From: Trypanosoma brucei
Taxonomy: Eukaryota
Length of the DNA stretch: 64,000 nt
Direction of reading: 5' to 3'
Assembly: GCA_000002445.1 (NCBI GenBank)
Contig: AL929603.2
Span: 960,001 to 1,024,000, forward strand
Shown one piece after another: positions 29,771 through 35,767 of this stretch. Below the pieces are notes generated by a model. The model was not told the origin of the DNA and ran no database searches. It worked only from the letters and a program-made list of their open reading frames with translations. Both the position numbers and the translations under genes were made by a program. The number at the start of each line of letters is the position of its first letter. Position 1 is the stretch's first letter.

Positions 29771-30757
29771 ATGAAAGTTACGATAGCGGAATTGGTTGTT
29801 TTGTTATTTTCTGTAATTTGTATTGATGGGAAGGAGGACAATGGGTGTACGTTGATAACAGATTATCACGGTGATGCACCTTTAAGTGAGTCCGTATGTT
29901 ATCTCAGTTGTCTTTCGAATGCATTAAATAAATTGTACAGCGAGGGAGAGAGGAGGCTGTTTGTGAATGAGGAAGTGTATGCAAATGCATTTCGTATATT
30001 GGATGATATGGAAGGAAGAGCAGGTGAAAGTGTTAGATATTTGAGTATTATTAGTGTTGCGATGGTAAAGGAAAATAATAGGTTGGAAAAGCTTATATCT
30101 CATGGAAATGCAATGGGAGACCTTGTAGCTAAGGCTGGTGGATTATTTGCTGAGGTTAATGAAAGTGTGAGGGCAGTGAGGAAAGAAATACCTGGTGCCC
30201 TTATAAAAGTGAATAAATATTATACGGCTATTGCTGAGATCACAAGGACTGTGTGGGATGATGTTAAAGCTGTGGAAAGTGGAAAGCACGAATGTAAAGA
30301 TCAAGAGTTTAGAGGTGTTAAAGAGTTTGACGTTACATGTGGAGATAACGCATGTCTGCTGGCACATGGTGTGAGTGAGGGCGCCCTCAAACATTATAAG
30401 AATGGGCTTCTTGAAATAAACGTGATGACAAAGTCCGGTGGGGTGAGCAAATGCCTCAACTTACCACGCAATAACCTGTATAAGAGTGGTGCGGTAAACA
30501 ATTCAAACAAAGTACTGGATTGGCGTGATGATGCTGACACTGTCACTCACTTTCTACTCAAACTGAAAATACGGGACATCTTTAGCACCCTCATCGCACC
30601 TTTTGCTGCTGGACAACCACCTTCTGCACTCTTGGACATGATGGCCAATATCACTTCACTTTACTCCCGTTTCAATGAAGTCCACAGGAGTTTCACTTCG
30701 TTGCTGTTCGACACGAATAGCATTGATAATGTGAAAAGCACTAATTCTACCATCTGA
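29771..30757 (+). CDS. Family A secreted/surface protein, copy A1 (328 aa; signal peptide, no C-terminal hydrophobic tail)
   Basis: N-terminal signal peptide MKVTIAELVVLLFSVICIDG. Cys-containing N-domain. Three paralogs plus one fragment lie in the window. It may be ESAG-like (see findings), identity unconfirmed. Confidence 0.8.
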   Translation: MKVTIAELVVLLFSVICIDGKEDNGCTLITDYHGDAPLSESVCYLSCLSNALNKLYSEGERRLFVNEEVYANAFRILDDMEGRAGESVRYLSIISVAMVKENNRLEKLISHGNAMGDLVAKAGGLFAEVNESVRAVRKEIPGALIKVNKYYTAIAEITRTVWDDVKAVESGKHECKDQEFRGVKEFDVTCGDNACLLAHGVSEGALKHYKNGLLEINVMTKSGGVSKCLNLPRNNLYKSGAVNNSNKVLDWRDDADTVTHFLLKLKIRDIFSTLIAPFAAGQPPSALLDMMANITSLYSRFNEVHRSFTSLLFDTNSIDNVKSTNSTI

Positions 30758-32003
30758 CAGATATTTTCAGATATTTTCCCTCGTTCTATAATAAAAATAA
30801 CTTTACGCGTGCGTGCTCTCATCCTTTTCAACTGATAATTTCTTTATCTGGAGTGTCCCTGTCTTGGTTATCTTAATTGTGAGTGTTAGTGACTGTGGTT
30901 GTCGCTCCACCATTTGTGTTGTAGGGTAGTGGGGTGTGTTAATTCTTTCTGCATGTGAAGTAAGGAAGAAATATTTGGTTTTGTGCTCACAAGAGTAGTT
31001 TTGTTGCCATTTATTTTTGGTTATGCAAAGAACCTGCGTGCAATGAAGATAAATGAGAATTCATTGAAAGGATGAGCGGTTACGTATGTAATATCCGTTT
31101 TTTTCTACCAGAGTGTCTCTAAGGATGGTGACTGGTGGGTGTGGCAAATGATCTAAATGGAGGTAATAACAGGGAGGGTCACTCGTTATTTTGGAACTGT
31201 TCTATTTTTTGGTGTGTTGGTGGCTAACATAATATCCCATCATGTCACCACATAATCAGCGGTTTCAGTAATGAGCATAATTGTTTGAGACGGTGTTTTG
31301 AGAATGCAACTTTTATCTTTATCATTTTGTGGCTTAAGAAAATGGAAGGGAGGAGGTTGTGCATGTTCACAAAGAGAGGAGCAAAGGCTGTTGTCAATAC
31401 CTGTATGAAAGGAGGAGGATGTGCTAAATGAGGCTCAGTAGCAAAGTTGTGTGCATTGGATAAGGGTAAGACATACATGCAAATTAAGCGCGTAATCTAT
31501 TAGAGAGTAAAGGCATAAAGTAACAACTGAAAGTAATGGGGTCAGAGGAGGGTATGGAAAAACATAGCATGAATGTGCAAGTACTCATTATGGTAGTGGA
31601 AGTGTTCATCTGGAGAGTAGATGAGCTCATTGAGAAACTCAAGAAATCGGTAGCACAACTAAGTTGGGAAAGTGTAATTACCTGGCATGGAGAGTAAGGA
31701 AGTGAATATGTTGGATGAAGAAATTAGGAGAAATGGTGTAACGAAAAGGAGAATACCGCAGTTGTGAGGAAGTCTAACGTTGATATCTAACTTCAGGCAA
31801 GGGAATTCATGTAACTGCGTGTTTCCGACGTGTGTTACGTTGTGTTGGGTGCTGCTGTAATTGGTTTGTGTCAGGCACTTTCAAGATCCGATATTTGGTT
31901 GTATATGTCTGTTGAGTGTGTCTGCCAATATCAGTAATGACTGTAATTATAAGCTTTTGTTTTTTCCTCCTTTTCGGCGGATGAATGTATAGGCAAAATT
32001 ACA

Positions 32004-33368
32004 ATGAGGTGTGAAACAGTGTTTACTGTTGGGTTGTTTGCGATTGTTTTATCTCCTTCCTTTCAGGGGGATTTGGGGTCGTTCAAATGGAGCACAGAAT
32101 TGATTGACTGGAGCAAGATTACAGAATATATTGATGAGAGTTATAAGCACCATAACGCTGGTGAGTTCGAGACACTGTGCAAGATTTACAGAATTACGCA
32201 GGCAGAAGCTCCACAACCTTCCTTTGAGAATCGCGAGAAGGAAGGAGAGATTATGAATAAGTTGGAGGAAATGGTCAAGCAAACGGCGGGTGCTGGTGTT
32301 AATAACAGTTCAAGCAAGTCAGGTAACAGCACGACAGCATATCAGGAGATAAGGAAACTGTTTGAGAAGGCGAAAGCGCTGAAGGAGGAAATTGAGGTGA
32401 ACAGGACAAAAGCCTTAAATGCAAGTCGTTCTGCTGAAGATAATATGCTGAGAGCTGTGTATGGCGACGCTGTGGATGTTGCAAGAAATGAGAATAAAAC
32501 TCTAGAGCAAGCCATGAGGGGAAACAAATCACTGCTGTTCAATAATGTCGACAATGCGGGCACGAGCTGCGGTTCTTATGGAGAGAAGTTTGTTGGAAAG
32601 ACACTAATTAATGACTTTTTCTGCCTATGTGTGGGAGAGGCTATAGGTGGAACAGGGAGCGTAATAGAAAAAAAAGTGGAAAGGGGAGATGTTTTTAATA
32701 CACATATATATAATGGGTTTAATTGTCCTTGTAAAGATGAGATAAGGAGGCCAAGTAATGGTAGTTGGACCATGATGGCTGAATTTTGTGCGAGTGGCGA
32801 GGAGCTTTGCGAGCCTCAAAACGTCATATACAACCATACTGAAGCATGGAATGTGATCAGCAAAGCTTGTGTATACAAGAATATTGCATCGAATGTGAAA
32901 ACCTTAAAGAGTGCACTAGCTCACTTTGATTCACTAGTAAATTTGGAACAGGATAAATATCAGGTGAAGGGCATTTTCGGTTATGTGAAAACTGAAAACA
33001 ACACAAATCACACCTGCACGGGTCATACTGCTGGATTCACATGTGTTAGTTACAGTTACACACTTGAAAATGGTGGGATTCCATGGTACAATCACCTTAC
33101 TAACGCTACTGAGCAACTGCAAGAAATGGATGAATATGCCAAAGAGGCTGACAGTCATCTTCATGAGTTGGAAGAATACCAACATGAGGCAGAGGAAATA
33201 TTTCTTGAGGTGAAGCTAGGAGGTGATGCGGAGCTATGGAAAAGCAACCGAGGTAAGGGTGATGGTGAAGGTGATAATACAGTGGTAGATAATGATGGAC
33301 TTACTCATTTGAATATTGCAACTGGGGGTTTTACATTATTAGTTTTATCTCTTATTTGTACGCTTTAG
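32004..33368 (+). CDS. Family B putative GPI-anchored surface glycoprotein, copy B1 (454 aa)
   Basis: Signal peptide (FTVGLFAIVLSPSFQG). Cys motifs (FETLC, CGSYG, FFCLCVGEA, FNCPCKDE). Many N-x-S/T sites. The C-terminal hydrophobic tail GGFTLLVLSLICTL is typical of a GPI signal. Paralog at 58092..59468. Confidence 0.8.
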   Translation: MRCETVFTVGLFAIVLSPSFQGDLGSFKWSTELIDWSKITEYIDESYKHHNAGEFETLCKIYRITQAEAPQPSFENREKEGEIMNKLEEMVKQTAGAGVNNSSSKSGNSTTAYQEIRKLFEKAKALKEEIEVNRTKALNASRSAEDNMLRAVYGDAVDVARNENKTLEQAMRGNKSLLFNNVDNAGTSCGSYGEKFVGKTLINDFFCLCVGEAIGGTGSVIEKKVERGDVFNTHIYNGFNCPCKDEIRRPSNGSWTMMAEFCASGEELCEPQNVIYNHTEAWNVISKACVYKNIASNVKTLKSALAHFDSLVNLEQDKYQVKGIFGYVKTENNTNHTCTGHTAGFTCVSYSYTLENGGIPWYNHLTNATEQLQEMDEYAKEADSHLHELEEYQHEAEEIFLEVKLGGDAELWKSNRGKGDGEGDNTVVDNDGLTHLNIATGGFTLLVLSLICTL

Positions 33369-34662: not shown

Positions 34663-34792
34663 TTCAATGTTATATTTTATGCTACGGTTCTGTTATTGGT
34701 ATTGTGCGTTTGTGATACCCACTGCTTTTTTGTGTAATGGAGGGGATGTGTTTTTCCTCTTTTATATCTTTTGCCACATGTGATTGTAGGTA

Positions 34793-35767
34793 ATGAAAGT
34801 TACGATAGCGGAATTGGTTGTTTTGTTATTTTCTGTAATTTGTATTGATGGGAAGGAGGACAATGGGTGTACGTTGATAACAGATTATCACGGTGATGCA
34901 CCTTTAAGTGAGTCCGTGTGTTATCTCAGTTGCCTTTCGGATGCATTAAATAAATTGTACAGCGAGGGAGAGAGGAGGCTGTTTGTGAATGAGGAAGTGT
35001 ATGCAAATGCATTTCGTATATTGGATGATATGGAAGGAAGAGCAGGTGAAAGTGTTAGATATTTGAGTATTATTAGTGTTGCGATGGTAGAGGAAAATAA
35101 TAGGTTGGAAAAGCTTATATCTCATGGAAATGCAATGGGAGACCTTGTAGCTAAGGCTGGTGGATTATTTGCTGAGGTTAATGAAAGTGTGAGGGCAGTG
35201 AGGAAAGAAATACCTGGTGCCCTTATAAAAGTGAATAAATATTATACGGCTATTGCTGAGATCACAAGGACTGTGTGGGATGATGTTAAAGCTGTGGAAA
35301 GTGGAAAGCACGAATGTAAAGATCAAGAGTTTAGAGGTGTTAAAGAGTTTGACGTTACATGTGGAGATAACGCATGTCTGCTGGCACATGGTGTGAGTGA
35401 GGGCGCCCTCAAACATTATAAGAATGGGCTTCTTGAAATAAACGTGATGAGTGGTTCTGTGAGCAAATGCCTCAACTTACCACGCAATAACCTGTATTTG
35501 AATGGCGCGATAAATAGTTCCCACGGCTTGCTGAAGTGGCGCCAACACAGTGCCGAAATGTTCCAGCTTGAACTTAGAGTAAAGAATATTTTTAATCCCC
35601 TCGTCGCATCTTTTGCTGCTGGACAATCGTCTTCAGTACTTGCCGAAATGATGGCCAATATCACTTCGCTTTACTCTCGTTTCAACGAAGTCCACAGGAG
35701 TTTCACTTCTTTGCTAGTCAACCCCAATCTCACTGACACCGGGGATGGTATTGATTCCATTTTTTAA
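34793..35767 (+). CDS. Family A secreted/surface protein, copy A2 (324 aa)
   Basis: The first ~213 codons are nearly identical to A1 at nucleotide level. The 3' third has diverged (about 60% aa identity). Confidence 0.8.
   Translation: MKVTIAELVVLLFSVICIDGKEDNGCTLITDYHGDAPLSESVCYLSCLSDALNKLYSEGERRLFVNEEVYANAFRILDDMEGRAGESVRYLSIISVAMVEENNRLEKLISHGNAMGDLVAKAGGLFAEVNESVRAVRKEIPGALIKVNKYYTAIAEITRTVWDDVKAVESGKHECKDQEFRGVKEFDVTCGDNACLLAHGVSEGALKHYKNGLLEINVMSGSVSKCLNLPRNNLYLNGAINSSHGLLKWRQHSAEMFQLELRVKNIFNPLVASFAAGQSSSVLAEMMANITSLYSRFNEVHRSFTSLLVNPNLTDTGDGIDSIF

What the first reader, a model, noticed from the sequence alone, without database searches (positions are those of the whole stretch)
29771..35767. 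Mosaic (patchwork) divergence among family-A copies consistent with segmental gene conversion
A1 and A2 are nearly identical over their first ~640 nt. Only a few substitutions appear, for example N/D at codon 50 and K/E in VKENN versus VEENN. They then switch abruptly to about 60% identity over the 3' third. The isolated A fragment at 56690..56862 combines A1-like residues (PLIAPFAAGQPPS, FDT.SIDNVKSTNSTI) with A2-like residues (VLAEMM). A3 keeps only the signal peptide and one ~65-codon central block identical. Sharp identity boundaries inside coding regions point to gene conversion or segmental recombination rather than gradual divergence. That is the mechanism used to diversify trypanosome surface antigens.
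Basis: seen in the sequence. Interest (0 to 1): 0.65.

Follow-up and report, generated by a model that had tools for sequence, protein, structure and literature searches.

The report
Mosaic ESAG1 genes from gene conversion
Three copies of the trypanosome gene ESAG1 on Trypanosoma brucei chromosome 1 are true patchworks made by recombination between neighbouring repeat units. This behaviour is already documented for the ESAG1 family, so the finding is correct but ordinary.

Summary
The window is T. b. brucei TREU927 chromosome 1. "Family A" is ESAG1 (Pfam PF03238). The copies sit in two chromosome-internal ESAG2–ESAG11–ESAG1 units, Tb927.1.4890–4910 and Tb927.1.5100–5120.

- A1 and A2 differ at 4 of their first 661 coding nt, and identity then falls to about 69%.
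- Synonymous divergence jumps from 0.015 to 0.69, so protein constraint cannot explain the switch.
- MaxChi, triplet and PHI-like permutation tests all support recombination.

Orthologous loci add detail. The A1 orthologues in T. b. gambiense DAL972 and T. equiperdum IVM-t1 carry a different 5' sequence. TREU927 A1 and A2 were therefore homogenised over an ~0.85–0.92 kb conversion tract (29506/29525 to 30365/30428). A1 also carries a short A3-like patch (30619–30637). That patch, not a mosaic fragment, explains the "A2-like" VLAEMM in the fragment at 56659–56862. The T. equiperdum assembly has one A1/A2 hybrid gene, which reads as a 5-kb deletion by crossover.

Patchy divergence also affects ESAG2 and ESAG11. 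All dN/dS values are below 1, and tagged ESAG1 is reportedly not on the cell surface, so antigen diversification is unsupported. Hertz-Fowler et al. 2008 already showed ESAG1 to be the most finely mosaic ESAG. I judge the phenomenon already known and of low interest.

The parts
29444..29638 (+). Truncated 3' end of an ESAG11 gene (last 65 codons) just upstream of A1. It marks the left edge of all homology with the ESAG11–ESAG1 junctions at 34466 and 60543.
   Evidence: tblastn places ESAG11 (P0053) aa 308-372 at 29443..29637 with 94% identity. Self-blast starts at 29444. DAL972 and T. equiperdum have the same edge.
29771..30757 (+). A1: ESAG1 paralogue (CAJ16693 / XP_001219178), chimeric. Its 5' two-thirds equal A2. 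Its 3' third is orthologous to DAL972 G1 and paralogous to the fragment at 56.7 kb.
   Evidence: Pfam PF03238 E = 1.2e-116. Exact match to the TREU927 chr 1 protein. Alignments.
29506..30428 (+). Conversion tract on the A1 side, at its maximal extent. The minimal extent is 29525..30365. It is 99.6% identical to 34528..35450.
   Evidence: Only 4 differences lie between alignment columns 108 and 1038. Triplet test with A1 as child, G1 as orthologue and A2 as paralogue: an A2-like run over columns 127-975, then G1-like, 0/20000 permutations. dS = 0.015.
30619..30637 (+). Short A3-like patch in A1 (PPSALLDMM). It may extend to about 30675. G1, E1, A2, Fr and EFr all carry the other state (PPSVLAEMM).
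   Evidence: Per-column states. Six of 7 consecutive informative sites are A3-like, with 3/20000 permutations reaching this.
30588..35771 (+). Unit I of the 5.2-kb segmental duplication: A1 3' end, spacer, ESAG2, ESAG11, A2.
   Evidence: Self-blast 30588-35771 against 56693-61859, 89.3% over 5218 columns. The identity profile is 94-100% with sharp dips.
32004..33368 (+). ESAG2 (Tb927.1.4890), with a VSG_B domain.
   Evidence: Pfam PF13206 E = 1e-27. CAJ16695. Gene id from PMC2837033.
33544..34662 (+). ESAG11 (Tb927.1.4900).
   Evidence: CAJ16696, named ESAG11. Gene id.
34793..35767 (+). A2: ESAG1 paralogue (CAJ16697, Tb927.1.4910).
   Evidence: Pfam PF03238 E = 2.7e-109..
34528..35450 (+). Partner of the conversion tract on the A2 side.
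56659..56862 (+). Fr: 3' fragment of an ESAG1 gene (last ~59-69 codons plus stop). It is the positional counterpart of the A1 3' end at the left edge of unit II.
   Evidence: tblastn hits at 56659/56683..56859. The best match is T. b. rhodesiense ESAG Ia at 91.5%. The downstream flank is 92-98% identical to the A1 flank. It is also present in T. equiperdum.
56693..61859 (+). Unit II of the segmental duplication: Fr, spacer, ESAG2 (58092..59468, Tb927.1.5100), ESAG11 (59645..60739, Tb927.1.5110), A3.
60872..61855 (+). A3: ESAG1 paralogue (CAJ16718, Tb927.1.5120). It is about 95% identical to A1/A2 through codon ~165 and deeply diverged afterwards.
   Evidence: Pfam E = 1.4e-116. MaxChi breakpoint at column 873. 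Segment-wise dS runs from 0 to saturated.

Best explanation
The three family-A genes are chromosome-internal ESAG1 paralogues on T. b. brucei TREU927 chromosome 1. They lie in two copies of an ESAG2–ESAG11–ESAG1 unit. Their patchwork similarity comes from ectopic homologous recombination between these units.

Four events can be read from the sequences:
1. A 5.2-kb segmental duplication: A-3' end, spacer, ESAG2, ESAG11, ESAG1.
2. A non-reciprocal conversion of about 0.85-0.92 kb. It made the ESAG11-3'/spacer/ESAG1-5' module of A1 and A2 99.6% identical in the TREU927 lineage.
3. Short patch conversions of about 20-60 bp, such as the A3-like patch in A1.
4. In the T. equiperdum IVM-t1 assembly, a crossover (or single-strand annealing) between A1 and A2 that deleted 5,022 bp and left one hybrid gene.

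What is shown: the breakpoints, the synonymous-site contrast, and the absence of the tract in the A1 orthologues.

What is inferred: the molecular pathway (RAD51-type homologous recombination), the direction of transfer, and whether the deeply diverged patches were imported from other paralogues or are old islands that escape homogenisation.
For: Identity of the genes. Pfam ESAG1 at E ~1e-116. Exact protein matches on TREU927 chr 1. Gene ids.

Architecture. Self-blast and repeat families.

Breakpoints. A1/A2 have 15 differences in 1027 sites left of the breakpoint and 84 in 268 right of it, chi2 = 269, 0/1000 permutations.

Synonymous sites. A1-A2 dS is 0.015 against 0.69. A1-A3 dS ranges from 0 to saturated within one gene.

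Orthologues. DAL972 G1 and T. equiperdum E1 share about 35 differences from TREU927 A1 exactly where A1 equals A2. G1 follows A1 through the 3' third and flank. The triplet test for A1 gives 0/20000.

T. equiperdum hybrid. E1 switches once from G1-type to A2-type between alignment columns 1059 and 1076. Its left flank is the A1 flank and its right flank is the A2 flank.

Other tests. PHI-like test: 0.077 observed against 0.166 expected, 0/2000.

Family-wide mosaicism. The cDNA P0002 is E3-like over aa 1-165, A1/A2-like over 166-221 and A1/G1-like over 222-328. P0005 and its contig L006 are 98% identical to A2 up to codon ~164 and unrelated beyond.

Unit-wide mosaicism. ESAG2 and ESAG11 show the same patches with saturated dS.

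Literature. GARD and PHI found recombination in all BES ESAG families except the highly conserved ESAG10. ESAG1 had the shortest mean tract, 90 bp (PMC2567434). Recombination is frequent among non-ES copies (PMC3605285).
Against: - The direction of the A1/A2 conversion cannot be fixed. No 5' sequence of an A2 orthologue was available. The partial cDNA P0027, which is A2-type at its 3' end, carries the G1/E1-type middle region. Both haplotypes therefore occur at both loci in the species.
- The tract may be discontinuous. A1 keeps its own MTKSGG indel at columns 1039-1052 but is A2-like again at columns 1058-1079.
- The T. equiperdum 'deletion' could be an assembly collapse.
- TREU927 is diploid. 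An assembly that mixes haplotypes cannot be excluded with these tools.
Confidence: 0.85

Rival explanations
1. There was no recombination. The sharp boundaries reflect different selective constraint or mutation rate along the gene, with a conserved helical scaffold and a fast-evolving C-terminal part.
For: The 5' module (codons 1-165) is conserved across the whole family: 39 invariant columns, mostly N-terminal. In the predicted model, codons 38-167 form two long high-confidence helices and 168-266 a low-confidence region.
Against: Synonymous sites show the same jump, dS 0.015 against 0.69. A1 equals A2 through codons 166-221, where A3 is saturated. The orthologues G1 and E1 differ from A1 by about 5% in the very tract where the paralogue A2 differs by 0.4%. 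The PHI-like test is designed to be robust to rate variation and is significant.
Confidence: 0.03
2. A1 arose by a recent partial duplication, not conversion. A copy of the ESAG11-3'/A2-5' segment was inserted next to an older orphan 3' fragment like the one at 56.7 kb, creating a new full-length gene.
For: Unit II shows that an orphan 3' fragment exists at the equivalent position. The A1 tract starts inside a truncated ESAG11 piece.
Against: DAL972 and T. equiperdum already have a full-length gene at this locus. It has the same left edge at 29444 and a different 5' sequence. An existing gene was therefore overwritten rather than built.
Confidence: 0.06
3. The pattern is an assembly artefact: repeat collapse or haplotype mixing created the A1=A2 tract in TREU927 and/or the single hybrid gene in T. 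equiperdum.
For: The units are 5-kb repeats with about 0.9 kb of near-identity, a classic source of misassembly. The DAL972 chromosome 1 record ends 119 bp after G1. The T. equiperdum OVI contig ends 1.9 kb after the PLA1 gene. Assemblers clearly struggle with this region.
Against: A1 and A2 still differ at 4 positions inside the tract and have distinct flanks. Unit II is colinear in an independent T. equiperdum assembly. L001 has no N gaps. Independent cDNAs from other strains, P0002 and P0027, are themselves mosaics of the same modules.
Confidence: 0.06

Closest known systems
Mosaic ESAG families of the telomeric bloodstream expression sites of T. brucei Lister 427 (Hertz-Fowler et al. 2008, PMC2567434)
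   Same: It is the same gene family (ESAG1) in the same gene order, ESAG2–ESAG11–ESAG1. It shows the same signature of many short recombination tracts with distinct histories. In that study ESAG1 had the shortest mean tract (90 bp) and a significant PHI.
   Different: The copies here are chromosome-internal on chr 1. They lie next to housekeeping genes, with no 70-bp repeats or VSG downstream. The main event is a comparatively long homogenising tract of about 0.9 kb between two tandem units.
Concerted evolution of tandem gene arrays by gene conversion and unequal crossing-over (general mechanism; established knowledge)
   Same: Paralogues within one genome are more alike than orthologues between lineages over part of their length. 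Synonymous sites and spacers are homogenised. There is copy-number change by crossover, seen in the T. equiperdum hybrid gene.
   Different: Homogenisation is incomplete and modular. Islands with saturated dS persist inside otherwise 94-100% identical units.
Segmental gene conversion that assembles mosaic VSG genes during antigenic variation
   Same: Both involve short-patch, homology-driven transfer between diverged paralogues that yields chimeric coding sequences.
   Different: ESAG1 is not a VSG. There is no evidence here of somatic, within-infection events or of antibody selection. dN/dS is below 1. Tagged ESAG1 was not on the cell surface.

Membership tests
ESAG1 protein family (Pfam PF03238) | Significant full-length match to the ESAG1 profile | tested here: met
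   A1, A2 and A3 score E = 1e-116, 3e-109 and 1e-116. They cover profile positions 1-227, 1-220 and 1-226 of 227 respectively. There are 43 homologues, all from T. brucei subspecies.
ESAG1 sensu stricto (expression-site-associated) | Located in a telomeric VSG expression site, downstream of ESAG11 and upstream of 70-bp repeats and a VSG | tested here: not met
   The gene order ESAG2–ESAG11–ESAG1 is kept. However, the units lie between housekeeping genes (PLA1 at 26718..27620, an LRRP at 47735..50011) on core chr 1. They are chromosome-internal ESAG1-like ('GRESAG') copies.
Interlocus gene conversion | A tract of near-identity between paralogues, bounded by sharp breakpoints and including synonymous and non-coding sites | tested here: met
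   99.6% identity over 923 nt, including the spacer. dS is 0.015 inside the tract and 0.69 outside it. MaxChi gives 0/1000.
Interlocus gene conversion | Orthologues of the recipient in related lineages lack the tract (paralogues more alike than orthologues) | tested here: met
   DAL972 G1 and T. equiperdum E1 share about 35 differences from A1 within the tract. The triplet test gives 0/20000.
Interlocus gene conversion | Non-reciprocity: the donor is unchanged and the direction is known | tested here: inconclusive
   No genomic A2 orthologue with its 5' part was obtainable. T. equiperdum lacks it and the DAL972 record ends before it. The partial cDNA P0027 gives conflicting hints.
VSG-type mosaic antigen diversification | The product is a variable surface antigen under diversifying selection, and events arise somatically during infection | tested here: not met
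   Pairwise dN/dS is 0.08-0.76 in all segments. ESAG1 was not surface-localised when tagged (PMC4587319). Somatic timing cannot be tested with these tools.

The most novel reading that the evidence does not exclude
The chromosome-internal ESAG2–ESAG11–ESAG1 units might behave as a modular cassette system. A conserved module (ESAG11 3' end, spacer, ESAG1 helices 1-2, up to codon ~165) would act as the recombination handle. Deeply diverged 'head' and C-terminal modules would be shuffled on that handle between loci and strains, with a recurrent breakpoint at the structural boundary. This would be a VSG-like domain-shuffling process acting on non-telomeric genes, and might feed variants to expression sites.
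Probability: 0.12. Interest if true: 0.45.

Novelty: already known. Interest (0 to 1): 0.2.

Why it matters
This is a clean, well-resolved example of how ESAG-type gene families evolve at chromosome-internal sites. They show homogenising conversion tracts, micro-patches and copy-number change by crossover. It shows that the mosaicism described for telomeric expression sites also operates on the core-chromosome copies. It also warns that these loci are strain-variable and hard to assemble. It does not change current understanding of trypanosome biology.

Tried and rejected
- Exact-protein look-ups of the genes at 44308..45123 and 55395..56174, meant to reach more orthologous loci, found nothing on record.
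- The PLA1 look-up returned only a T. equiperdum OVI contig that ends 1.9 kb past PLA1.
- The DAL972 chr 1 record ends 119 bp after G1, so no A2 orthologue was available.
- The chromosome I paper (Hall et al. 2003, doi 10.1093/nar/gkg674) is not held.
- A search for the 1996 ESAG I family paper returned only irrelevant hits.
- The Rfam scan of the window found nothing.
- I considered and rejected three explanations: rate heterogeneity (dS contrast), de novo construction of A1 from an orphan fragment (full-length orthologues exist), and the fragment being the mosaic (A1 is the odd one out at the VLAEMM patch).
- My first triplet script timed out. I reran it in vectorised form.
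Full report
**What the region is**

The window is Trypanosoma brucei brucei TREU927 chromosome 1. A1, A2 and A3 are exact matches to CAJ16693, CAJ16697 and CAJ16718 on a 1,064,672-bp record. All three are full-length members of the ESAG1 family (Pfam PF03238, E about 1e-116).

They sit in two copies of a unit with the gene order ESAG2 – ESAG11 – ESAG1. That is the order found in telomeric bloodstream expression sites (PMC2567434). Here, though, the units are chromosome-internal, just downstream of the phospholipase A1 gene.
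- Unit I holds Tb927.1.4890 (ESAG2), Tb927.1.4900 (ESAG11) and Tb927.1.4910 (A2).
- Unit II holds Tb927.1.5100, Tb927.1.5110 and Tb927.1.5120 (A3).

**Checking the observation**

A1 (29771..30757) and A2 (34793..35767) differ at 4 of their first 661 coding nucleotides. They then differ at 103 of the remaining 329 alignment columns. The near-identity continues upstream of the ATG, through the spacer and into a truncated 3' piece of ESAG11 that starts at 29444.

A3 is about 95% identical to A1/A2 up to codon ~165 and then drops to 50-60%.

The fragment is real. It encodes the last 59-69 codons of an ESAG1 at 56659/56683..56859.

Self-comparison shows the larger architecture. Region 30588-35771 (A1 3' end, spacer, ESAG2, ESAG11, A2) is a 5.2-kb duplicate of 56693-61859 (fragment, spacer, ESAG2, ESAG11, A3) at 89% identity. 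The fragment is therefore the positional counterpart of the 3' end of A1.

**Is it recombination or uneven constraint?**

Synonymous divergence between A1 and A2 is 0.015 in codons 1-221 and 0.69 in codons 222-330. Between A1 and A3 it runs from 0 (signal peptide) and 0.08 (central block) to saturation (codons 166-221 and the C-terminus). Constraint on the protein cannot produce that pattern.

| Test | Result | Permutations reaching it |
|---|---|---|
| MaxChi, A1/A2 breakpoint | chi2 = 269 | 0/1000 |
| PHI-like, six sequences | 0.077 observed vs 0.166 expected | 0/2000 |
| Triplet, A1 (G1 orthologue, A2 paralogue) | A2-like run, then G1-like | 0/20000 |
| Triplet, E1 (G1, A2) | single switch | 0/20000 |

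**Orthologous loci give the history**

I fetched three related loci:
- the locus from T. b. gambiense DAL972 (L003, gene G1);
- the locus from T. b. equiperdum IVM-t1 (L001, gene E1);
- unit II of T. equiperdum (L005).

G1 has the A1-type 3' third and the A1-type downstream flank, so it is the A1 orthologue. Yet in the 5' two-thirds, G1 and E1 share about 35 differences from TREU927 A1, exactly where A1 equals A2.

In the triplet test, A1 is A2-like from alignment column 127 to 975 (A1 29525-30365) and G1-like thereafter. In the TREU927 lineage, A1 and A2 were therefore homogenised over a tract of 841-923 bp. This is an interlocus gene conversion.

The direction of transfer is unresolved. No genomic A2 orthologue with its 5' part was available, and cDNAs from other strains carry either haplotype at either locus.

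**The fragment is not the mosaic**

At the 'VLAEMM' patch, G1, E1, A2, the fragment and its T. equiperdum counterpart all share one state. Only A1 differs, and it matches A3 and E3 at 6 of 7 consecutive informative sites (3/20000 permutations). The simplest reading is a short patch conversion of 19 to about 57 bp into A1 from an A3-like donor.

**Copy-number change**

The T. equiperdum assembly has a single ESAG1. Its left flank is the A1 flank and its right flank is the A2 flank, and it lacks the 5,022 bp in between. The gene switches once, from G1-type to A2-type, between alignment columns 1059 and 1076. That is what a crossover or single-strand annealing between A1 and A2 would leave. An assembly collapse cannot be excluded.

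**The mosaicism is family-wide and unit-wide**

- The T. b. rhodesiense ESAG Ia cDNA (P0002) is closest to the T. equiperdum A3 orthologue over aa 1-165, to A1/A2 over aa 166-221, and to A1/G1 over aa 222-328.
- A T. equiperdum OVI contig (L006) is 98% identical to the A2 module up to codon ~164 and unrelated beyond. A3 departs from A1/A2 at the same place.
- Units I and II are 94-100% identical over spacers and most coding sequence. They have sharp dips inside ESAG2, ESAG11 and ESAG1, and dS is saturated in those dips.

Two readings of those islands remain open. They may have been imported from distant paralogues, or they may be old sequence that escapes homogenisation.

**Function and comparison with what is known**

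Pairwise dN/dS is below 1 in every segment. Gadelha et al. found that tagged ESAG1 does not reach the cell surface (PMC4587319).

Hertz-Fowler et al. 2008 already applied GARD and PHI to expression-site ESAGs. They found ESAG1 to have the shortest mean recombination tract, 90 bp. Jackson et al. 2013 note very frequent recombination among non-expression-site copies. The present case is a clear instance of a known process in annotated genes.

**Side result**

An AlphaFold2 model of A1 (mean pLDDT 73.8) has two long helices (38-97, 102-167), a poorly defined region (168-266) and a third long helix (284-313). Its best PDB matches are trypanosome three-helix-bundle surface proteins: the haptoglobin-haemoglobin receptor, ISG65, GARP and the factor H receptor. 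The scores are weak, with E about 1e-3 and TM 0.3-0.45. The recurrent breakpoint at codon ~165 coincides with the end of helix 2.

**Verdict**

The recombination interpretation is supported, with three corrections: the main event is homogenising, A1 rather than the fragment is the mosaic, and there is no evidence for antigen diversification. The phenomenon is already known and of low interest.

Noticed in passing
window 31959-32158, 32559-32850 (ESAG2) and 34049-34248 (ESAG11), versus unit II: ESAG2 and ESAG11 show the same patchwork as ESAG1. The two units are 94-100% identical, spacers included, but short coding patches drop to 60-76% identity with saturated dS.
   Followed up: partly
L001 (T. 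b. equiperdum IVM-t1) 9672-11000 versus window 29444-35771: This assembly has a single hybrid ESAG1 (A1-type 5', A2-type 3'). It lacks the 5,022 bp that carry the A1 3' end, ESAG2, ESAG11 and the A2 5' end. This is either a deletion by crossover between the paralogues or an assembly collapse.
   Followed up: partly
L005 (T. b. equiperdum) from 12524: The T. equiperdum orthologue of A3 has an in-frame stop codon (…NKL*AGG…), so it is a pseudogene there. Its N-terminal 165 aa match the T. b. rhodesiense ESAG Ia cDNA at 95-98%.
   Followed up: partly
window 29771-30757 (A1 protein model): The AlphaFold2 model suggests a three-helix bundle with a poorly defined insert. Its best, though weak, PDB matches are trypanosome surface receptors (HpHbR, ISG65, GARP, factor H receptor). 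ESAG1 has been described as having no homologues outside T. brucei.
   Followed up: partly
window 36000-42000: This stretch has negative GC skew, opposite to the rest of the window, and only short ORFs. It is conserved in T. equiperdum. It could be a strand-switch region or degenerate repeat sequence.
   Followed up: no
window 53265-54302 and 55395-56174: Two further predicted secreted or GPI-type proteins lie between the two units. One is a 345-aa protein with a VSG_B domain. The other is a 259-aa protein with no Pfam match.
   Followed up: no
L003 10001-10903 (DAL972): [quoted passage not shown] This looks like an annotation error.
   Followed up: no
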